Positions 1 through 5,386 of a DNA stretch of 5,386 nucleotides are shown in pieces. Under the pieces are notes generated by a model, which saw only the letters and a list, made by a program, of their open reading frames with translations, was not told where the DNA came from and did no database searches. The DNA comes from Escherichia phage phiX174. Within the stretch, counting starts at the first letter, position 1. Each line of letters begins with the position of its first letter. The stretch lies in sequence record EF380022.1; one strand, given 5' to 3'. A program made the translations under genes and the position numbers.

Positions 1-51
1 GAGTTTTATCGCTTCCATGACGCAGAAGTTAACACTTTCGGATATTTCTGA
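1..51 (+). CDS. B: 3' end of internal scaffolding protein B ORF, continuing from 5075..5386; stop TGA at 49-51
   Basis: Frame from 5384-5386 (gca) continues gag ttt tat cgc ttc cat gac gca gaa gtt aac act ttc gga tat ttc tga; C-terminus ...EFYRFHDAEVNTFGYF matches protein B. Confidence 0.92.
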   Translation, partial: EFYRFHDAEVNTFGYF

Positions 52-136
52 TGAGTCGAAAAATTATCTTGATAAAGCAGGAATTACTACTGCTTGTTTA
101 CGAATTAAATCGAAGTGGACTGCTGGCGGAAAATGA
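1..136 (+). CDS. A: 3' end of replication initiation protein A (and A*) ORF, continuing from the window end across the circular junction; stop TGA at 134-136
   Basis: Reading frame entering from 5385-5386+1 (cag) stays open to TGA 134-136; encodes ...SFIASMTQKLTLSDISDESKNYLDKAGITTACLRIKSKWTAGGK, recognised as the A C-terminus. Partial only because the circle is linearised here. Confidence 0.93.
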   Translation, partial: SFIASMTQKLTLSDISDESKNYLDKAGITTACLRIKSKWTAGGK

Positions 137-221
137 GAAAATTCGACCTATCCTTGCGCAGCTCGAGAAGCTCTTACTTTGCGACTTTTCGCCATCAACT
201 AACGATTCTGTCAAAAACTGA
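51..221 (+). CDS. K: protein K, 56 aa (MSRKIILIKQELLLLVYELNRSGLLAENEKIRPILAQLEKLLLCDFSPSTNDSVKN)
   Basis: ATG at 51 overlaps the B stop (tgatg, 49-53); open to TGA 219-221; overlaps the A tail and C start in a third frame. Absent from the ORF track because it is shorter than the track minimum. Confidence 0.88.
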   Translation: MSRKIILIKQELLLLVYELNRSGLLAENEKIRPILAQLEKLLLCDFSPSTNDSVKN

Positions 222-369
222 CGCGTTGGATGAGGAGAAGTGGCTTAATATGCTTGGCACGTTCGTTAAGGACTGGTTTAGATATGAGTCACATTTTGTT
301 CATGGTAGAGATTCTCTTGTTGACATTTTAAAAGAGCGTGGATTACTATCTGAGTCCGATGCTGTTTAA
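133..369 (+). CDS. C: DNA maturation/packaging protein C, 78 aa here; ends at TAA 367-369, 8 codons before the canonical C stop (TGA 391-393)
   Basis: ATG 133-135 overlaps the A stop (ATGA, 133-136). Translation MRKFDLSLRSSRSSYFATFRHQLTILSKTDALDEEKWLNMLGTFVKDWFRYESHFVHGRDSLVDILKERGLLSESDAV then TAA. The track ORF 115..369 is the same frame with a GTG extension; ATG 133 is the canonical start. Confidence 0.85.
   Translation: MRKFDLSLRSSRSSYFATFRHQLTILSKTDALDEEKWLNMLGTFVKDWFRYESHFVHGRDSLVDILKERGLLSESDAV
320..349 (+). promoter_or_regulatory. candidate sigma70 promoter PD within the 3' part of gene C, driving D-E-J-F-G-H
   Basis: Perfect -35 TTGACA at 320-325; 18-nt spacer; -10-like TACTAT at 344-349; predicted start near 356-358, consistent with the known phiX174 D promoter location. 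Confidence 0.6.
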
Positions 370-389
370 CCACTAATAGGTAAGAAATC

Positions 390-848
390 ATGAGTCAAGT
401 TATTGAACAATCTGTACGTTTCCAGACCGCTTTGGCCTCTATTAAGCTCATTCAGGCTTCTGCCGTTTTGGATTTAACCGAAGATGATTTCGATTTTCTG
501 ACGAGTAACAAAGTTTGGATTGCTACTGACCGCTCTCGTGCTCGTCGCTGCGTTGAGGCTTGCGTTTATGGTACGCTGGACTTTGTGGGATACCCTCGCT
601 TTCCTGCTCCTGTTGAGTTTATTGCTGCCGTCATTGCTTATTATGTTCATCCCGTCAACATTCAAACGGCCTGTCTCATCATGGAAGGCGCTGAATTTAC
701 GGAAAACATTATTAATGGCGTCGAGCGTCCGGTTAAAGCTGCTGAATTGTTCGCGTTTACCTTGCGTGTACGCGCAGGAAACACTGACGTTCTTACTGAC
801 GCAGAAGAAAACGTGCGTCAAAAATTACGTGCAGAAGGAGTGATGTAA
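390..848 (+). CDS. D: external scaffolding protein D, 152 aa
   Basis: Track ORF 390..848; protein MSQVIEQSVRFQTALASIKLIQASAVLDLTEDDF... recognised as phiX174 D; AGG at 378-380 nine nt upstream; stop TAA 846-848 overlaps the J start (taatg). Confidence 0.95.
   Translation: MSQVIEQSVRFQTALASIKLIQASAVLDLTEDDFDFLTSNKVWIATDRSRARRCVEACVYGTLDFVGYPRFPAPVEFIAAVIAYYVHPVNIQTACLIMEGAEFTENIINGVERPVKAAELFAFTLRVRAGNTDVLTDAEENVRQKLRAEGVM
568..843 (+). CDS. E: lysis protein E, 91 aa, embedded in D in the +1 frame (single-gene lysis protein, MraY inhibitor)
   Basis: ATG 568 with GAGG at 555-558; MVRWTLWDTLAFLLLLSLLLPSLLIMFIPSTFKRPVSS...; N-terminal hydrophobic helix with Pro21 retained; stop TGA 841-843. Track ORF 520..843 is the same frame with a TTG extension. 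Codon 586-588 is TGG, so this is not the am3 amber allele. Confidence 0.93.
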   Translation: MVRWTLWDTLAFLLLLSLLLPSLLIMFIPSTFKRPVSSWKALNLRKTLLMASSVRLKLLNCSRLPCVYAQETLTFLLTQKKTCVKNYVQKE

Positions 849-964
849 TGTCTAAAGGTAAAAAACGTTCTGGCGCTCGCCCTGGTCGTCCGCAGCCGTT
901 GCGAGGTACTAAAGGCAAGCGTAAAGGCGCTCGTCTTTGGTATGTAGGTGGTCAACAATTTTAA
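848..964 (+). CDS. J: small basic DNA-binding/packaging protein J, 38 aa (MSKGKKRSGARPGRPQPLRGTKGKRKGARLWYVGGQQF)
   Basis: ATG 848 overlapping the D stop; AGGAG at 836-840; 12 of 38 residues are Lys/Arg; stop TAA 962-964. Too short for the ORF track. Confidence 0.92.
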   Translation: MSKGKKRSGARPGRPQPLRGTKGKRKGARLWYVGGQQF

Positions 965-969
965 TTGCA

Positions 970-983
970 GGGGTTTCGGCTCC
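970..983 (+). terminator. J-F intergenic hairpin (TJ terminator / mRNA-stabilising stem-loop), here with two wobble pairs
   Basis: ggggt-ttcg-gctcc: five stem pairs, of which 972/981 and 974/979 are G-T (G-U in RNA); followed by T-rich ttacttg. Lies between the J stop (964) and F start (1001). Confidence 0.5.
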
Positions 984-1000
984 TTACTTGAGGATAAATT

Positions 1001-2284
1001 ATGTCTAATATTCAAACTGGCGCCGAGCGTATGCCGCATGACCTTTCCCATCTTGGCTTTCTTGCTGGTCAGATTGGTCGTCTTATTACCATTTCAACTA
1101 CTCCGGTTATTGCTGGCGACTCCTTCGAGATGGACGCTGTTGGCGCTCTCCGTCTTTCTCCATTGCGTCGTGGCCTTGCTATTGACTCTACTGTAGACAT
1201 TTTTACTTTTTATGTCCCTCATCGTCACGTTTATGGTGAACAGTGGATTAAGTTCATGAAGGATGGTGTTAATGCCACTCCTCTCCCGACTGTTAACACT
1301 ACTCGTTATATTGACCATGCCGCTTTTCTTGGCACGATTAACCCTGATACCAATAAAATCCCTAAGCATTTGTTTCAGGGTTATTTGAATATCTATAACA
1401 ACTATTTTAAAGCGCCGTGGATGCCTGGCCGTACCGAGGCTAACCCTAATGAGCTTAATGAAGATGATGTTCGTTATGGTTTCCGTTGCTGCCATCTCAA
1501 AAACATTTGGACTGCTCCGCTTCCTCCTGAGACTGAGCTTTCTCGCCAAATGACGACTTCTACCACATCTATTGACATTATGGGTCTGCAAGCTGCTTAT
1601 GCTAATTTTCATACTGACCAAGAACGTGATTACTTCATGCAGCGTTATCGTGATGTTATTTTTTCATTTGGAGGTAAAACCTCTTATGATGCTGATAACC
1701 GTCCTTTACTTGTCATGCGCTCTAATTTCTGGGCATCTGGCTATGATGTTGATGGAACTGACCAAACGTCGTTAGGCCAGTTTTCTGGTCGTGTTCAACA
1801 GACCTATAAACATTCTGTGCCGCGTTTCTTTGTTCCTGAGCATGGTACTATGTTTACTCTTGCGCTTGTTCGTTTTCCGCCTACTGCGACTAAAGAGATT
1901 CAGTATCTTAACGCTAAAGGTGCTTTGACTTATACCGATATTGCTGGCGACCCTGTTTTGTATGGCAACTTGCCGCCGCGTGAAATTTCTATGAAGGATG
2001 TTTTCCGTTCTGGTGATTCGTCTAAGAAGTTTAAGATTGCTGAGGGTCAGTGGTATCGTTATGCGCCTTCGTATGTTTCTCCTGTTTATCACCTTCTTGA
2101 AGGCTTCCCATTCATTCAGGAACCGCCTTCTGGTGATTTGCAAGAACGCGTACTTATTCGCCACCATGATTATGACCAGTGTTTCCAGTCCGTTCAGTTG
2201 TTGCAGTGGAATAGTCAGGTTAAATTTAATGTGACCGTTTATCGCAATCTGCCGACCACTCGCGATTCAATCATGACTTCGTGA
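1001..2284 (+). CDS. F: major capsid protein F, 427 aa
   Basis: Track ORF 1001..2284; MSNIQTGAERMPHDLSHLGFLAGQIGRLITISTTPVIAGDSFEMDAVGALRL... recognised as phiX174 F; GAGGA at 990-994; stop TGA 2282-2284. Confidence 0.96.
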   Translation: MSNIQTGAERMPHDLSHLGFLAGQIGRLITISTTPVIAGDSFEMDAVGALRLSPLRRGLAIDSTVDIFTFYVPHRHVYGEQWIKFMKDGVNATPLPTVNTTRYIDHAAFLGTINPDTNKIPKHLFQGYLNIYNNYFKAPWMPGRTEANPNELNEDDVRYGFRCCHLKNIWTAPLPPETELSRQMTTSTTSIDIMGLQAAYANFHTDQERDYFMQRYRDVIFSFGGKTSYDADNRPLLVMRSNFWASGYDVDGTDQTSLGQFSGRVQQTYKHSVPRFFVPEHGTMFTLALVRFPPTATKEIQYLNAKGALTYTDIAGDPVLYGNLPPREISMKDVFRSGDSSKKFKIAEGQWYRYAPSYVSPVYHLLEGFPFIQEPPSGDLQERVLIRHHDYDQCFQSVQLLQWNSQVKFNVTVYRNLPTTRDSIMTS

Positions 2285-2315
2285 TAAAAGATTGAGTGTG
2301 AGGTTATAACGCCGT

Positions 2316-2343
2316 AGCGGTAAAAATTTTAATTTTTGCCGCT
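2316..2343 (+). other. F-G intergenic inverted repeat / hairpin (agcggtaaaaatt..aatttttgccgct); this region is the complementary-strand origin (PriA/n' primosome assembly site) in phiX174
   Basis: Arms 2316-2327 and 2332-2343 pair with a single G-T wobble (2321/2338). A GCGAAGC mini-hairpin motif follows at 2358-2364. Functional assignment is from established phiX174 biology, not from the sequence alone. Confidence 0.55.
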
Positions 2344-2394
2344 GAGGGGTTGACCAAGCGAAGCGCGGTAGGTTTTCTGCTTAGGAGTTTAATC

Positions 2395-2922
2395 ATGTTT
2401 CAGACTTTTATTTCTCGCCATAATTCAAACTTTTTTTCTGATAAGCTGGTTCTTACTTCTGTTACTCCAGCTTCTTCGGCACCTGTTTTACAGACACCTA
2501 AAGCTACATCGTCAACGTTATATTTTGATAGTTTGACGGTTAATGCTGGTAATGGTGGTTTTCTTCATTGCATTCAGATGGATACATCTGTCAACGCCGC
2601 TAATCAGGTTGTTTCTGTTGGTGCTGATATTGCTTTTGATGCCGACCCTAAATTTTTTGCCTGTTTGGTTCGCTTTGAGTTTTCTTCGGTTCCGACTACC
2701 CTTCCGACTGCCTATGATGTTTATCCTTTGGATGGTCGCCATGATGGTGGTTATTATACCGTCAAGGACTGTGTGACTATTGACGTCTTTCCCCGTACGC
2801 CGGGCAATAATGTTTATGTTGGTTTCATGGTTTGGTCTAACTTTACCGCTACTAAATGCCGCGGATTGGTTTCGCTGAATCAGGTTATTAAAGAGATTAT
2901 TTGTCTCCAGCCACTTAAGTGA
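2395..2922 (+). CDS. G: major spike protein G, 175 aa
   Basis: ATG 2395 with AGGAG at 2383-2387; [46 protein letters not shown]...; stop TGA 2920-2922. Track ORF 2350..2922 is the same frame with a TTG extension. Confidence 0.95.
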
Positions 2923-2930
2923 GGTGATTT

Positions 2931-3917
2931 ATGTTTGGTGCTATTGCTGGCGGTATTGCTTCTGCTCTTGCTGGTGGCGTCATGTCTAAATTGTTTGGAG
3001 GCGGTCAAAAAGCCGCCTCCGGTGGCATTCAAGGTGATGTGCTTGCTACCGATAACAATACTGTAGGCATGGGTGATGCTGGTATTAAATCTGCCATTCA
3101 AGGCTCTAATGTTCCTAACCATGATGAGGCCGCCCCTAATTTTGTTTCTGGTGCTATGGCTAAAGCTGGTAAAGGACATCTTGAAGGTACGTTGCAGGCT
3201 GGCACTTCTGCCGTTTCTGATAAGTTGCTTGATTTGGTTGGACTTGGTGGCAAGTCTGCCGCTGATAAAGGAAAGGATACTCGTGATTATCTTGCTGCTG
3301 CATTTCCTGAGCTTAATGCTTGGGAGCGTGCTGGTGCTAATGCTTTCTCTGCTGGTATGGTTGACGCCGGATTTGAGAATCAAAAAGAGCTTACTAAAAT
3401 GCAACTGGACAATCAGAAAGAGATTGCCGAGATGCAAAATGAGACTCAAAAAGAGATTGCTGGCATTCAGTCGGCGACTTCACGCCAGAATACGAAAGAC
3501 CAGGTATATGCACAAAATGAGATGCTTGCTTATCAACAGAAGGAGTCTACTGCTCGTGTTGCGTCTATTATGGAAAACACCAATCTTTCCAAGCAACAGC
3601 AGGTTTCCGAGATTATGCGCCAAATGCTTACTCAAGCTCAAACGGCTGGTCAGTATTTTACCAATGACCAAATCAAAGAAATGACTCGCAAGGTTAGTGC
3701 TGAGGTTGACTTAGTTCATCAGCAAACGCAGAATCAGCGGTATGGTTCTTCTCATATTGGCGCTACTGCAAAGGATATTTCTAATGTCGTCACTGATGCT
3801 GCTTCTGGTGTGGTTGATATTTTTTATGGTATTGATAAAGCTGTTGCCGATACTTGGAACAATTTCTGGAAAGACGGTAAAGCTGATGGTATTGGCTCTA
3901 ATTTGTCTAGGAAATAA
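2931..3917 (+). CDS. H: DNA pilot / minor spike protein H, 328 aa
   Basis: Track ORF 2931..3917; GAGG at 2921-2924; Gly-rich N-terminus [16 protein letters not shown]..., central repeat region with QKE[LI] motifs; stop TAA 3915-3917. Confidence 0.95.
3381..3479 (+). repeat. H: three tandem degenerate 33-nt (11-codon) repeats inside gene H encoding [11 protein letters not shown] / [11 protein letters not shown] / [11 protein letters not shown]
   Basis: Units at 3381-3413, 3414-3446 and 3447-3479 each start ca[ag]aaagag; the 11-residue period fits a coiled-coil segment of the H DNA-pilot protein. Confidence 0.7.
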
Positions 3918-3926
3918 CCGTTAGGA

Positions 3927-3955
3927 TTGACATCCTCCCAATTGTATGTTTTCAT
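3927..3955 (+). promoter_or_regulatory. candidate promoter PA in the H-A intergenic region
   Basis: Perfect -35 TTGACA at 3927-3932; 17-nt spacer; weak -10-like TTTCAT at 3950-3955 (4 of 6 match to TATAAT). The exact -10 is uncertain. Confidence 0.45.
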
Positions 3956-3980
3956 GCCTCCAAATCTTGGAGGCTTTTTT
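3956..3980 (+). terminator. rho-independent terminator-like hairpin plus T6 tract (TH) directly upstream of the gene A start codon
   Basis: gcctccaa (3956-3963) pairs with ttggaggc (3967-3974) around loop atc, followed by tttttt (3975-3980). The 3' arm contains the gene A Shine-Dalgarno GGAGG. Confidence 0.7.
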
Positions 3981-5386
3981 ATGGTTCGTTCTTATTACCC
4001 TTCTGAATGTCACGTTGATTATTTTGACTTTGAGCGTATCGAGGCTCTTAAACCTGCTATTGAGGTTTGTGGCATTTCTACTCTTTCTCAATCCCCAATG
4101 CTTGGCTTCTATAAGCAGATGGATAACCGCATTAAGCTCTTGGAAGAGATTCTGTCTTTTCGTATGCAGGGCGTTGAGTTCGATAATGGTGATATGTATG
4201 TTGACGGCCATAAGGCTGCTTCTGACGTTCGTGATGAGTTTGTATCTGTTACTGAGAAGTTAATGGATGAATTGGTACAATGCTACAATGTGCTCCCCCA
4301 ACTTGATATTAATAACACTATAGACCATCGCCCCGAAGGGGACGAAAAATGGTTTTTAGAGAACGAGAAGACGGTTACGCAGTTTTGCCGCAAGCTGGCT
4401 GCTGAACGCCCTCTTAAGGATATTCGCGATGAGTATAATTACCCCAAAAAGAAAGGTATTAAGGATGAGTGTTCAAGATTGCTGGAGGCCTCCACTATGA
4501 AATCGCGTAGAGGCTTTACTATTCAGCGTTTGATGAATGCAATGCGACAGGCTCATGCTGATGGTTGGTTTATTGTTTTTGACACTCTCACGTTGGCTGA
4601 CGACCGATTAGAGGCGTTTTATGATAATCCCAATGCTTTGCGTGACTATTTTCGTGATATTGGTCGTATGGTTCTTGCTGCCGAGGGTCGCAAGGCTAAT
4701 GATTCACACGCCGACTGTTATCAGTATTTTTGTGTGCCTGAGTATGGTACAGCTAATGGCCGTCTTCATTTCCATGCGGTGCACTTTATGCGGACACTTC
4801 CTACAGGTAGCGTTGACCCTAATTTTGGTCGTCGGGTACGCAATCGCCGCCAGTTAAATAGCTTGCAAAATACGTGGCTTTATGGTTACAGTATGCCTAT
4901 CGTAGTTCGCTACACGCAGGACGCTTTTTCACGTTCTGGTTGGTTGTGGCCTGTTGATGCTAAAGGTGAGCCGCTTAAAGCTACCAGTTATATGGCTGTT
5001 GGTTTCTATGTGGCTAAATACGTTAACAAAAAGTCAGATATGGACCTTGCTGCTAAAGGTCTAGGAGCTAAAGAATGGAACAACTCACTAAAAACCAAGC
5101 TGTCGCTACTTCCCAAGAAGCTGTTCAGAATCAGAATGAGTCGCAACTTCGGGATGAAAATGCTCACAATGACAAATCTGTCCACGGAGTGCTTAATCCA
5201 ACTTACCAAGCTGGGTTACGACGCGACGCCGTTCAACCAGATATTGAAGCAGAACGCAAAAAGAGAGATGAGATTGAGGCTGGGAAAAGTTACTGTAGCC
5301 GACGTTTTGGCGGCGCAACCTGTGACGACAAATCTGCTCAAATTTATGCGCGCTTCGATAAAAATGATTGGCGTATCCAACCTGCA
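3981..5386 (+). CDS. A: replication initiation protein A (HUH-type rolling-circle endonuclease), 5' 1406 nt; ORF continues to 1..136 for 513 aa in total
   Basis: ATG 3981 with GGAGG at 3969-3973. I translated codon by codon to the window end and found no stop. MVRSYYPSECH...; HUH-type motif LHFHAVHF (His-Phe-His at 4767-4775) and catalytic tyrosine pair in GFYVAKYVNKK (Tyr codons 5007-5009 and 5019-5021). Missing from the ORF track because there is no stop before the window end. Confidence 0.94.
   Translation, partial: MVRSYYPSECHVDYFDFERIEALKPAIEVCGISTLSQSPMLGFYKQMDNRIKLLEEILSFRMQGVEFDNGDMYVDGHKAASDVRDEFVSVTEKLMDELVQCYNVLPQLDINNTIDHRPEGDEKWFLENEKTVTQFCRKLAAERPLKDIRDEYNYPKKKGIKDECSRLLEASTMKSRRGFTIQRLMNAMRQAHADGWFIVFDTLTLADDRLEAFYDNPNALRDYFRDIGRMVLAAEGRKANDSHADCYQYFCVPEYGTANGRLHFHAVHFMRTLPTGSVDPNFGRRVRNRRQLNSLQNTWLYGYSMPIVVRYTQDAFSRSGWLWPVDAKGEPLKATSYMAVGFYVAKYVNKKSDMDLAAKGLGAKEWNNSLKTKLSLLPKKLFRIRMSRNFGMKMLTMTNLSTECLIQLTKLGYDATPFNQILKQNAKREMRLRLGKVTVADVLAAQPVTTNLLKFMRASIKMIGVSNL
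4299..4328 (+). other. ori: viral (+) strand origin of rolling-circle replication inside gene A; A-protein nick expected between G4305 and A4306
   Basis: Sequence caacttgatattaataacactatagaccat matches the conserved 30-nt microvirus origin at 29 of 30 positions as I recall it (canonical final base is C); it sits in the expected place in A. Confidence 0.8.
4497..5386 (+). CDS. A*: A* - in-frame internal start within A (shorter A isoform), continuing to 1..136
   Basis: In-frame ATG at 4497-4499 preceded by GGAGG at 4484-4488 (8-nt spacing), encoding MKSRRGF...; the position matches the known A* start of phiX174. Confidence 0.75.
   Translation, partial: MKSRRGFTIQRLMNAMRQAHADGWFIVFDTLTLADDRLEAFYDNPNALRDYFRDIGRMVLAAEGRKANDSHADCYQYFCVPEYGTANGRLHFHAVHFMRTLPTGSVDPNFGRRVRNRRQLNSLQNTWLYGYSMPIVVRYTQDAFSRSGWLWPVDAKGEPLKATSYMAVGFYVAKYVNKKSDMDLAAKGLGAKEWNNSLKTKLSLLPKKLFRIRMSRNFGMKMLTMTNLSTECLIQLTKLGYDATPFNQILKQNAKREMRLRLGKVTVADVLAAQPVTTNLLKFMRASIKMIGVSNL
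4863..4892 (+). promoter_or_regulatory. candidate promoter PB inside gene A, upstream of B
   Basis: -35-like TTGCAA at 4863-4868; 18-nt spacer; -10-like TACAGT at 4887-4892. Motif match only. Confidence 0.3.
5075..5386 (+). CDS. B: internal scaffolding protein B, 5' part; ORF continues to 1..51 for 120 aa in total; entirely inside A in another frame
   Basis: ATG 5075 with AGGAG at 5063-5067; MEQLTKNQAVATSQEAVQNQNESQLRDENAHNDKSVHGVLNPTYQAGLRRDAVQPDIEAERKKRDEIEAGKSYCSRRFGGATCDDKSAQIYARFDKNDWRIQPA... open to the window end. Confidence 0.92.
   Translation, partial: MEQLTKNQAVATSQEAVQNQNESQLRDENAHNDKSVHGVLNPTYQAGLRRDAVQPDIEAERKKRDEIEAGKSYCSRRFGGATCDDKSAQIYARFDKNDWRIQPA

What the first reader, a model, noticed from the sequence alone, without database searches (positions are those of the whole stretch)
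1..5386. Strand-asymmetric, C->T-dominated substitutions relative to canonical phiX174 (from memory)
Comparing stretches I can recall of the canonical sequence with this window, most differences are C->T on the given (packaged) strand. Examples: 367 CAA->TAA; both arms of the J-F hairpin; ori CAC->CAT at 4328; A codon 12 GCT->GTT; H codon 17 GCC->GTC; several Ser->Phe, Leu->Phe, His->Tyr, Pro->Leu and Ala->Val changes in A, F, G and H. I see essentially no reciprocal T->C and only a minority of other types. Excess C->T on the single-stranded viral strand is the expected footprint of cytosine deamination, whether spontaneous, thermal, chemical (bisulfite, hydroxylamine, nitrous acid) or enzymatic. 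This suggests a mutagenised or mutation-accumulation derivative rather than simple natural divergence. I could not run an alignment, so the counts are approximate.
Basis: inference. Interest (0 to 1): 0.6.

Follow-up and report, generated by a model that had tools for sequence, protein, structure and literature searches.

The report
Hydroxylamine-mutagenised laboratory phiX174 clone
The window is the complete genome of a laboratory phiX174 clone (GenBank EF380022) from a published 2007 evolution experiment in which free phage particles were treated with the chemical mutagen hydroxylamine at every transfer, which fully explains its one-sided excess of C-to-T changes; the pattern is real but already known.

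Summary
The window is collinear with phiX174 NC_001422 and differs at 57 sites: 44 C>T, 0 T>C and 4 G>A on the packaged strand.

The source was identified. The nearest record is EF380031, isolate DEL1, from Silander, Tenaillon & Chao 2007 (PLoS Biol 5:e94). The window differs from it by 38 substitutions, 35 of them C>T. Of the series EF380009-EF380032, only EF380022 is missing from the search collection. Seven window proteins match ABN49765, 67, 68, 70, 71, 74 and 75 exactly, inside the protein-id gap that EF380022 must occupy.

In that experiment free virions were treated with 250 mM hydroxylamine at every transfer and passed through small bottlenecks. The authors report 89% C>T.

Sibling lines look the same: 21-39 substitutions, 75-95% C>T. 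The changes passed through selection: 63% are silent against 27% expected, and none is nonsense. They show no dinucleotide context and are spread evenly along the genome.

One nuance: hydroxylamine makes a miscoding N4 adduct rather than deaminating cytosine. Already known; low interest. One unexplained side observation is a recurrent two-site gene H haplotype (3178/3189).

The parts
1..5386 (+). Complete phiX174 genome, viral (+) strand, canonical numbering. Identified as GenBank EF380022, a clone of the line founded from isolate DEL1.
   Evidence: Searches show collinearity with NC_001422 and EF380031. One search shows EF380022 is the only accession of EF380009-32 absent from the collection. 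One search shows exact protein matches to ABN49765, 67, 68, 70, 71, 74 and 75.
186..186 (+). C>T vs DEL1; K L46F, synonymous in C
267..267 (+). C>T vs DEL1; synonymous in C (V45)
367..367 (+). C>T vs NC_001422 (CAA>TAA, protein C Q79*). It was inherited from the lab-adapted ancestor AP100 and is not part of the last mutagenised stage.
403..403 (+). C>T vs DEL1; D T5I; also seen in 100B90 and 100C90
413..413 (+). C>T vs DEL1; synonymous in D (S8)
740..740 (+). C>T vs DEL1; synonymous in D (A117), E P58L
974..974 (+). C>T vs DEL1; 5' arm of the J-F intergenic terminator hairpin, C-G pair becomes U-G
   Evidence: With both arm changes the RNA hairpin weakens from -12.4 to -6.8 kcal/mol and keeps the same fold.
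981..981 (+). C>T vs DEL1; 3' arm of the J-F hairpin, G-C pair becomes G-U
1060..1060 (+). C>T vs DEL1; synonymous in F (F20)
1138..1138 (+). C>T vs DEL1; synonymous in F (A46)
1648..1648 (+). C>T vs DEL1; synonymous in F (Y216)
1690..1690 (+). C>T vs DEL1; synonymous in F (D230)
1696..1696 (+). C>T vs DEL1; synonymous in F (D232)
1846..1846 (+). C>T vs DEL1; synonymous in F (G282)
1906..1906 (+). C>T vs DEL1; synonymous in F (Y302); S13 also has T here
2315..2315 (+). A>T vs DEL1. This is the only non-C>T change unique to this line. It lies in the F-G intergenic region, in the 5' stem of the T_F/ori(-) hairpin.
   Evidence: predicted hairpin -21.5 to -22.7 kcal/mol. [quoted passage not shown]
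2454..2454 (+). C>T vs DEL1; synonymous in G (L20)
2681..2681 (+). C>T vs DEL1; G S96F
2703..2703 (+). C>T vs DEL1; synonymous in G (L103)
2788..2788 (+). C>T vs DEL1; G L132F
2980..2980 (+). C>T vs DEL1; H A17V
3178..3178 (+). T>A vs DEL1; H L83H. This transversion recurs in 8 other records of the series.
3189..3189 (+). G>A vs DEL1; H A87T. It returns to the canonical base, and A at this site always accompanies 3178A.
3557..3557 (+). C>T vs DEL1; synonymous in H (R209)
3746..3746 (+). C>T vs DEL1; synonymous in H (G272)
3825..3825 (+). C>T vs DEL1; H H299Y
3922..3922 (+). C>T vs DEL1; H-A intergenic region, upstream of the pA -35 element; also seen in 3E90, 10A90 and 30B90
3933..3933 (+). 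C>T vs DEL1; H-A intergenic region, the base just after the pA -35 hexamer (3927-3932), which is intact
4015..4015 (+). C>T vs DEL1; A A12V
4110..4110 (+). C>T vs DEL1; A H44Y
4133..4133 (+). C>T vs DEL1; synonymous in A (I51)
4276..4276 (+). C>T vs DEL1; A A99V
4328..4328 (+). C>T vs DEL1; synonymous in A (H116). I take this to be the last base of the 30-nt viral-strand origin, 4299-4328, an extent recalled from memory and not checked with a tool.
   Evidence: the detrimental synonymous ori(+) codons reported are A 107-115, not 116; neighbouring 4329 C>T recurs in 100B90, 100C90 and the 250 lines.
4574..4574 (+). C>T vs DEL1; synonymous in A/A* (I198)
4718..4718 (+). C>T vs DEL1; synonymous in A/A* (C246)
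4879..4879 (+). C>T vs DEL1; A/A* P300L
4898..4898 (+). C>T vs DEL1; synonymous in A/A* (P306)
4903..4903 (+). C>T vs DEL1; A/A* A308V
5141..5141 (+). C>T vs DEL1; synonymous in A (S387), B P23S; also seen in 10B90 and 100C90

Best explanation
The window is GenBank EF380022. It is one sequenced clone from the phiX174 line that Silander, Tenaillon and Chao (2007) founded from their 'very low-fitness' ancestor DEL1. That line was propagated at a bottleneck of three plaques, by inference for 90 transfers; the isolate name is probably 3D90.

At each transfer free virions were incubated in 250 mM hydroxylamine for 140 min at 37 C and then plated. Only the packaged (+) strand is present in a virion. 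Hydroxylamine converts cytosines on that strand into N4-hydroxy adducts that template A during synthesis of the complementary strand. Every induced mutation therefore reads as C>T on the deposited strand, and G>A and T>C are essentially absent.

The tiny bottleneck let many neutral and mildly deleterious C>T changes drift to fixation. Lethal ones (nonsense, and most coat-protein missense) were removed because each founder had to form a plaque. The few non-C>T changes are spontaneous replication errors, and two of the three are recurrent and probably selected.

Shown by tool results or stated in the paper: the identity, the pedigree, the spectrum, the selection footprint and the published protocol. 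Inferred: the isolate name, the number of transfers for this particular line, and the attribution of each individual C>T to hydroxylamine rather than background deamination.
For: Identity:
- The best hit is EF380031 (DEL1) at 99.3%.
- The window carries every DEL1-derived marker, including the two that separate DEL1 from DEL4 (1111T, 3346T).
- All of EF380009-32 are present in the collection except EF380022 (one search gives 'no record').
- EF380021 ends at protein ABN49764 and EF380023 starts at ABN49776.
- Window proteins A, B, K, D, E, G and H are exact matches to ABN49765, 67, 68, 70, 71, 74 and 75.

Pedigree fits the paper:
- Three lines are closest to DEL4 (3E90, 10E90, 10F90: one at N=3, two at N=10). 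Only the window is closest to DEL1.

Protocol and published spectrum: hydroxylamine treatment of free phage at each transfer, and 89% of substitutions C>T.

Spectrum:
- 35 of 38 changes (92%) are C>T relative to DEL1. Siblings show 75-95%, pooled 449 of 522 (86%), and the window is not different from them (Fisher p=0.46).
- C>T against G>A gives p=1.8e-10, and against T>C p=1.6e-14.

Selection footprint, showing these are real mutations in viable phage:
- 22 of 35 are silent or intergenic against 27% expected (p=1e-5).
- 0 of 35 create or remove a stop against 9% expected (P=0.034).
- All 7 hits in F are synonymous.
- The missense-to-silent rate ratio is 0.25.
- The site-class counts (730 missense, 311 silent, 106 stop) reproduce the paper's 736, 309 and 106.

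Chemistry-like behaviour:
- There is no 5' or 3' neighbour bias in the window (p=0.85 and 0.35).
- The hits are evenly spread along the genome (KS p=0.56).
- 19 of the 38 changes recur independently in sibling lines.

Mechanism of miscoding by hydroxylamine-type dC adducts (pairing with dA, giving dC>dT): PMC2995083, whose experiments used O-allylhydroxylamine.
Against: - The EF380022 nucleotide record could not be retrieved. Identity at the 18 synonymous and 5 intergenic sites of the last stage (4 C>T plus A2315T), 23 sites in all, therefore rests on inference from the protein matches and the pedigree.
- The isolate name and the transfer number are inferred from the sibling naming scheme.
- Some of the C>T changes could be spontaneous deamination of the single-stranded genome rather than hydroxylamine adducts. 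Sequence cannot tell the two apart.
- The DEL1 stage, also described as mutagenised, shows only 5 of 10 C>T. That sample is small, small plaques were deliberately picked, and at least one of those differences (3339) reflects the AP100 deposit rather than a real change.
- The silent substitution count (22) is somewhat above the paper's mean rate of 0.18 per transfer over 90 transfers, which gives 16.2 (Poisson P=0.098).
Confidence: 0.95

Rival explanations
1. Spontaneous or thermal hydrolytic deamination of cytosine in the single-stranded genome during ordinary mutation accumulation, with no added mutagen, produced the C>T excess.
For: The strand asymmetry and the lack of sequence context are equally expected from spontaneous deamination of ssDNA. 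Natural phiX174-to-S13 divergence is also C/T-rich: 44 sites with C in phiX and T in S13, against 23 the other way.
Against: The published protocol for exactly this set of records states that hydroxylamine was applied at every transfer and attributes the 89% C>T bias to it. The unmutagenised 100-transfer adaptation stage that gave AP100 fixed only 3 C>T among 7-8 changes. The mutagenised lines fixed 17-36 C>T in 55-90 transfers.
Confidence: 0.03
2. Enzymatic editing by a single-strand-specific cytosine deaminase (APOBEC or AID-like, or a bacterial deaminase toxin) hypermutated the viral strand.
For: The changes are one-strand-only C>T and number in the tens per genome.
Against: There is no dinucleotide preference in the window: 5' neighbours are C 9, T 9, A 7, G 10 (p=0.85). 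Pooled over 484 events, 5'-T is depleted and 5'-C is at background, the opposite of TC or CC motifs. The hits are spread evenly, not clustered (KS p=0.56). The documented history supplies a sufficient chemical cause.
Confidence: 0.005
3. The C>T changes are not real mutations. On this view they are a template-damage, sequencing or in-silico artefact, such as deaminated template, bisulfite-like conversion or simulated edits.
For: A pure C>T spectrum is typical of damaged templates.
Against: Artefacts would fall on C sites regardless of coding effect. Here silent sites are enriched 2.3-fold (p=1e-5), there are no nonsense changes, and all 7 hits in F are synonymous. Half of the changes recur in independently sequenced sibling lines. 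The resulting proteins are exactly those deposited in GenBank in 2007.
Confidence: 0.01
4. The window is a natural phiX174-like isolate (S13-like or a wild bullavirus) and the differences are ordinary divergence.
For: Five of the 35 last-stage C>T sites carry T in S13.
Against: The window is 145 differences from S13 but 38 from DEL1. It contains the full nested marker set of a laboratory pedigree. There is no T>C at all.
Confidence: 0.005

Closest known systems
Sibling evolved lines of Silander, Tenaillon & Chao 2007 (EF380010-EF380030, e.g. 3E90 EF380023, 10E90 EF380026, 10F90 EF380027)
   Same: They share the laboratory ancestor markers. The amount of change is similar: 33-37 substitutions from DEL4 and 21-39 from AP100, against 38 from DEL1 here. 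The spectrum is the same (75-95% C>T), and many parallel sites are shared.
   Different: The window is the only line that descends from DEL1. It has 19 substitutions not seen in any sibling, among them both J-F hairpin hits, C4328T and A2315T.
EF380031 (isolate DEL1), the immediate sequenced ancestor
   Same: It is identical at 5348 of 5386 positions and carries all the earlier markers, including the protein C Q79* truncation.
   Different: There are 38 substitutions: 35 C>T, A2315T, T3178A and G3189A.
Classical in vitro hydroxylamine mutagenesis of single-stranded DNA phages (Tessman 1968 on S13, cited as ref. 58 of the paper)
   Same: The treatment falls on free virions, so only the packaged strand is exposed. 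The result is C>T read on the viral strand. The adduct chemistry is described in PMC2995083.
   Different: Here the treatment was repeated over about 90 serial bottlenecked transfers, so tens of mutations are fixed in one genome rather than single induced mutants being scored.
APOBEC3-type hypermutation of single-stranded viral DNA
   Same: The outcome is the same: strand-specific C>T in a single-stranded replication intermediate.
   Different: There is no TC or CC context and no clustering. The cause is chemical, not enzymatic, and the history is documented.

Membership tests
Silander et al. 2007 phiX174 series, record EF380022 | Carries the nested marker substitutions of the AP100 > DEL1 pedigree | tested here: met
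   All 7 AP100 markers and all 9 visible DEL1 markers are present, including 1111T and 3346T, which separate DEL1 from DEL4. The window is 38 differences from DEL1, 41 from DEL4 and 46 from AP100.
Silander et al. 2007 phiX174 series, record EF380022 | Encoded proteins are the ones deposited under that record | tested here: met
   There are exact matches to ABN49765 (A), 67 (B), 68 (K), 70 (D), 71 (E), 74 (G) and 75 (H). The block ABN49765-75 lies between EF380021 (ends at 764) and EF380023 (starts at 776). EF380022 is the only accession of the series missing from the collection.
Silander et al. 2007 phiX174 series, record EF380022 | Nucleotide-for-nucleotide identity with the record, and the isolate name | not testable with these tools
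   The record is absent from 'phages'. No encoding contig is on record. There is no hit in viral contigs.
In vitro hydroxylamine footprint on a packaged single strand | Substitutions almost exclusively C>T on the packaged strand, with G>A and T>C near zero | tested here: met
   35 C>T, 1 G>A and 0 T>C relative to DEL1; p=1.8e-10 and 1.6e-14.
In vitro hydroxylamine footprint on a packaged single strand | No strong neighbouring-base context and no clustering | tested here: met
   Window: 5' p=0.85, 3' p=0.35, KS p=0.56. Pooled silent sites show only a weak 5'-G preference (p=0.03) and no link to predicted pairing (p=0.13).
In vitro hydroxylamine footprint on a packaged single strand | Documented exposure to hydroxylamine | tested here: met
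   The methods of PMC1845161 state 250 mM hydroxylamine, 140 min, 37 C, at every transfer. This applies to the window through the identity argument above.
APOBEC/AID-type enzymatic deamination | Preferred dinucleotide or trinucleotide context (TC, CC, WRC) and clustered hits | tested here: not met
Natural isolate (S13-like) | Near identity to a natural isolate and a roughly reversible transition spectrum | tested here: not met
   145 differences from S13; 44 C>T against 0 T>C.

The most novel reading that the evidence does not exclude
The C>T footprint itself is fully explained. The least ordinary thing the data leave open concerns the two linked non-C>T changes in gene H, T3178A (L83H) and G3189A (A87T), 11 nt apart. 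The T-G haplotype turned into A-A in the window's line and in several other nominally independent lines of the experiment, and no A-G intermediate is ever seen.

If this is not strong epistatic selection or ancestral polymorphism, it would mean undetected gene flow between lines, either contamination or recombination with a common strain such as the marked competitor. The original paper tested for contamination only through synonymous-site over-dispersion.
Probability: 0.1. Interest if true: 0.3.

Novelty: already known. Interest (0 to 1): 0.08.

Why it matters
It matters mainly as a clean negative. The striking strand-asymmetric C>T pattern is not a new biological phenomenon. It is the documented signature of an experimental treatment in a published, deposited genome.

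It is a useful worked example in two ways. First, it shows what a pure single-strand cytosine-damage spectrum filtered by viability selection looks like: 92% C>T, 63% silent, no nonsense and no context. Second, it shows how to separate such a spectrum from enzymatic editing and from sequencing artefacts.

It also shows that comparison with the canonical reference mixes four historical layers, only one of which carries the extreme bias.

Tried and rejected
- Retrieving the EF380022 DNA for a base-by-base check failed. An exact 27-mer spanning both J-F hairpin changes found nothing in viral contigs.
- I tested whether hits avoid base-paired cytosines. I used local-fold unpaired probabilities with DNA parameters, on silent C sites pooled over 19 lines. 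There was no signal: mean 0.41 for hit sites against 0.46 for unhit sites, p=0.13.
- I tested for neighbour context. There is none in the window. In the pooled data, 5'-G is enriched overall. Restricted to silent sites, only a weak preference remains (p=0.03, uncorrected), so part of the pooled effect may be a codon-position confound.
It agrees at 36 of 44 C>T sites, but 8 sites carry T in S13. The sequenced ancestors are the better polariser, so I did not pursue G4 or alpha3.
- I rejected spontaneous-only deamination, APOBEC-like editing, artefact and natural isolate. The reasons are given under the rival explanations.
- I searched the paper for any comment on the recurrent 3178/3189 changes and found none.


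Full report
**What the window is.** The 5386-base window is a complete phiX174 genome in the canonical numbering. It aligns without indels to NC_001422 and to about 160 other phiX174 records. All eleven genes are intact on the given strand, except that protein C ends eight codons early. The given strand is the packaged (+) strand, because it is the coding strand of all the genes.

**Checking the observation.** Against NC_001422 there are 57 differences: 44 C>T, 4 G>A, 3 A>G, six singletons of other classes, and no T>C.
- Allowing for base composition, C>T against G>A gives p=1.7e-10.
- C>T against T>C gives p=6.8e-18.

**Where the window comes from.** The three closest records are EF380031 (isolate DEL1, 38 differences), EF380032 (DEL4, 41) and EF380009 (AP100, 46). 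These belong to the series EF380009-EF380032 deposited with Silander, Tenaillon & Chao, PLoS Biol 2007 (PMC1845161).

I fetched every member of the series. All are present except EF380022 (one search returns 'no record'). The protein accessions run consecutively. EF380021 ends at ABN49764 and EF380023 begins at ABN49776, so ABN49765-75 must belong to EF380022.

An exact-sequence look-up shows that the window's proteins A, B, K, D, E, G and H are ABN49765, 67, 68, 70, 71, 74 and 75. The window is therefore EF380022. The nucleotide record itself could not be retrieved, so identity at silent sites is inferred. By the naming scheme of the series (3A-C, then a gap, then 3E and 3F) the isolate is probably '3D90', which is also an inference.

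**Pedigree.** Pairwise distances give the following:
- Twelve lines derive from AP100.
- Three lines (3E90, 10E90, 10F90) derive from DEL4.
- Three '250' lines derive from 100C90.
- The window alone derives from DEL1.

[quoted passage not shown] The window is the last of these.

**Why the changes are C>T.** The methods state that at every transfer the phage were incubated in 250 mM hydroxylamine with 1 mM EDTA at 37 C for 140 min before plating. [quoted passage not shown]

Hydroxylamine-type reagents add to the exocyclic N4 of cytosine. The resulting oxime or imino form pairs with adenine, giving dC>dT (PMC2995083, whose experiments used O-allylhydroxylamine). A virion contains only the (+) strand, so only (+) strand cytosines are exposed and every induced change reads C>T on the deposited strand. 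That last step follows from established knowledge of Microviridae and from the Tessman work the paper cites.

Relative to DEL1 the window has 38 changes, of which 35 (92%) are C>T. Sibling lines show 75-95%, pooled 449 of 522, and the window does not differ from them (Fisher p=0.46).

**The history has layers.** The 57 differences from the Sanger reference break down as follows:

| Layer | Differences | C>T |
|---|---|---|
| Lab-stock differences shared with AF176034 | 4 | 1 |
| Changes fixed in the unmutagenised, lab-adapted AP100 (including C367T, the protein C stop) | 7 | 3 |
| Visible changes at the DEL1 stage | 9 | 5 |
| Visible changes in the final stage | 37 | 35 |

The extreme bias belongs to the final stage only.

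**These are real, selected mutations.** Of the 1147 cytosines in DEL1, a C>T is silent or intergenic at 311, missense at 730, and creates or removes a stop at 106. These numbers reproduce the paper's 309, 736 and 106. The 35 observed hits are 22 silent, 13 missense and 0 stop.
- Silent sites are enriched (p=1e-5).
- The probability of seeing no stop is 0.034.
- The missense-to-silent rate ratio is 0.25.
- All seven hits in the coat gene F are synonymous.

This rules out a sequencing, damage or simulation artefact. It fits plaque-to-plaque transfer, in which each founder must be viable.

**No enzyme-like signature.** Neighbouring bases of the hit cytosines match the background (5' p=0.85, 3' p=0.35). 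The hits are evenly spread along the genome (KS p=0.56). Pooled over 484 events in 19 lines, 5'-T is depleted and 5'-C is at background, the opposite of APOBEC motifs. At silent sites only a weak 5'-G preference remains (p=0.03), and there is no relation to predicted pairing of the single strand (p=0.13).

- C974T and C981T turn two G-C pairs of the J-F terminator hairpin into G-U pairs. The fold is kept but the predicted stability falls from -12.4 to -6.8 kcal/mol. A recent saturation-mutagenesis preprint reports that only about 15% of terminator mutations are detrimental.
- C4328T is synonymous (A H116). I take 4328 to be the last base of the 30-nt origin, an extent recalled from memory and not checked with a tool. 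The preprint lists detrimental synonymous origin codons as A 107-115, not 116. The adjacent C4329T recurs in five sibling records. A near-neutral effect is therefore plausible, but this is inferred.
- C3922T and C3933T flank the pA -35 hexamer and leave it intact.

**The three non-C>T changes.** A2315T is unique to this line. It lies in the 5' stem of the T_F/ori(-) hairpin, where the preprint reports 39 fitness-increasing mutations.

T3178A and G3189A, in gene H codons 83 and 87, are not unique. Across the series only three haplotypes occur: T-A, T-G and A-A. The step from T-G to A-A has happened in several lineages: DEL1 to the window, DEL4 to 3E90 and to 10F90, and 100C90 to the 250 lines. 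3A90 and the common ancestor of 3F90 and 10D90 also carry A-A. The paper does not comment on this.

Selection with epistasis is the simplest reading. The paper says one N=3 line founded from a low-fitness ancestor rose in fitness. Ancestral polymorphism, gene flow between lines, or a batch effect in sequencing are not excluded.

**Verdict.** The one chemical nuance is that hydroxylamine makes a miscoding adduct rather than deaminating cytosine. The phenomenon, the sequence and the explanation were all published in 2007, so the finding is already known and of low interest.

Noticed in passing
window 3178 and 3189 (gene H codons 83 and 87); same positions in L001, L004, L005, L007-L026: Only three haplotypes occur in the series: T-A, T-G and A-A. 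The two-step change from T-G to A-A consists of two non-C>T changes 11 nt apart. It recurs in the window's line and in several other nominally independent lines, and no A-G intermediate is seen. The cause could be selection with epistasis, ancestral polymorphism, gene flow or a sequencing batch effect. The paper does not discuss it.
   Followed up: partly
L005 (EF380009, AP100) positions 3339, 3189, 1428: The deposited AP100 clone differs from every other record of the series at 3339 (G against A). It differs from 11 of its 12 direct descendants at 3189, and from 8 of 12 at 1428. The sequenced AP100 clone is therefore probably not the exact founder. A few 'substitutions' counted against it, including part of the DEL1-stage count, are not real events.
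   Followed up: partly
L015 (EF380024, 3F90) and L016 (EF380025, 10D90): These two records share 21 substitutions relative to AP100, many of them transversions (A>C, T>G, G>T). They share 1304C, 1609T and 3339A with the DEL clones. They seem to descend from a third ancestor that was not deposited. The paper's Figure 2 legend speaks of five lineages each at N=3 and N=10. The fetched records give five N=3 isolates (3A-C, 3E, 3F) and six N=10 isolates (10A-F), and EF380022 would make a sixth N=3 isolate.
   Followed up: partly
window 367 (gene C codon 79): C367T makes CAA into TAA and removes the last 8 residues of protein C. It was fixed during the unmutagenised laboratory adaptation (AP100). 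It is retained in all 24 genomes of the series: the 23 fetched records plus the window. A viable nonsense change in a DNA-packaging gene is notable.
   Followed up: no
window 970-983 (J-F intergenic hairpin): Both hits turn G-C pairs into G-U pairs, so the fold is kept. The predicted RNA stability is roughly halved, from -12.4 to -6.8 kcal/mol. Neither change is seen in any sibling line.
   Followed up: partly
window 2315 (F-G intergenic, T_F / ori(-) hairpin 5' stem): A2315T is unique to this line and is predicted to add one base pair, taking the hairpin from -21.5 to -22.7 kcal/mol. It lies in 2308-2326, the 5' stem in which a 2026 saturation-mutagenesis preprint counts 39 mutations that increase fitness.
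   Followed up: partly
window 4328; 4329 in L025, L026, L019-L021: I take the 3' edge of the viral-strand origin to be 4328, an extent recalled from memory. It tolerates change: C4328T occurs here and C4329T recurs in 100B90, 100C90 and the 250 lines. This is consistent with the preprint's list of sensitive synonymous origin codons stopping at A codon 115.
   Followed up: partly
whole window vs L001: The host in the experiment was an E. coli mutT strain. That strain is expected to raise A:T>C:G transversions, which is established knowledge. The window's line nevertheless has no A>C or T>G change. Such changes are rare in most siblings too: 4 A>C and 2 T>G among 522 substitutions.
   Followed up: no
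window 1906, 2454, 2980, 3746, 4133: Five of the 35 last-stage C>T sites carry T in the natural relative S13. These are sites where the induced change parallels natural variation, which suggests they are effectively neutral.
   Followed up: no
pooled silent C sites of L005 and descendants: Among silent sites, cytosines preceded by G were hit somewhat more often: 60 of 91, against about half for the other neighbours (p=0.03, uncorrected). There was no relation to predicted single-strand pairing.
   Followed up: partly
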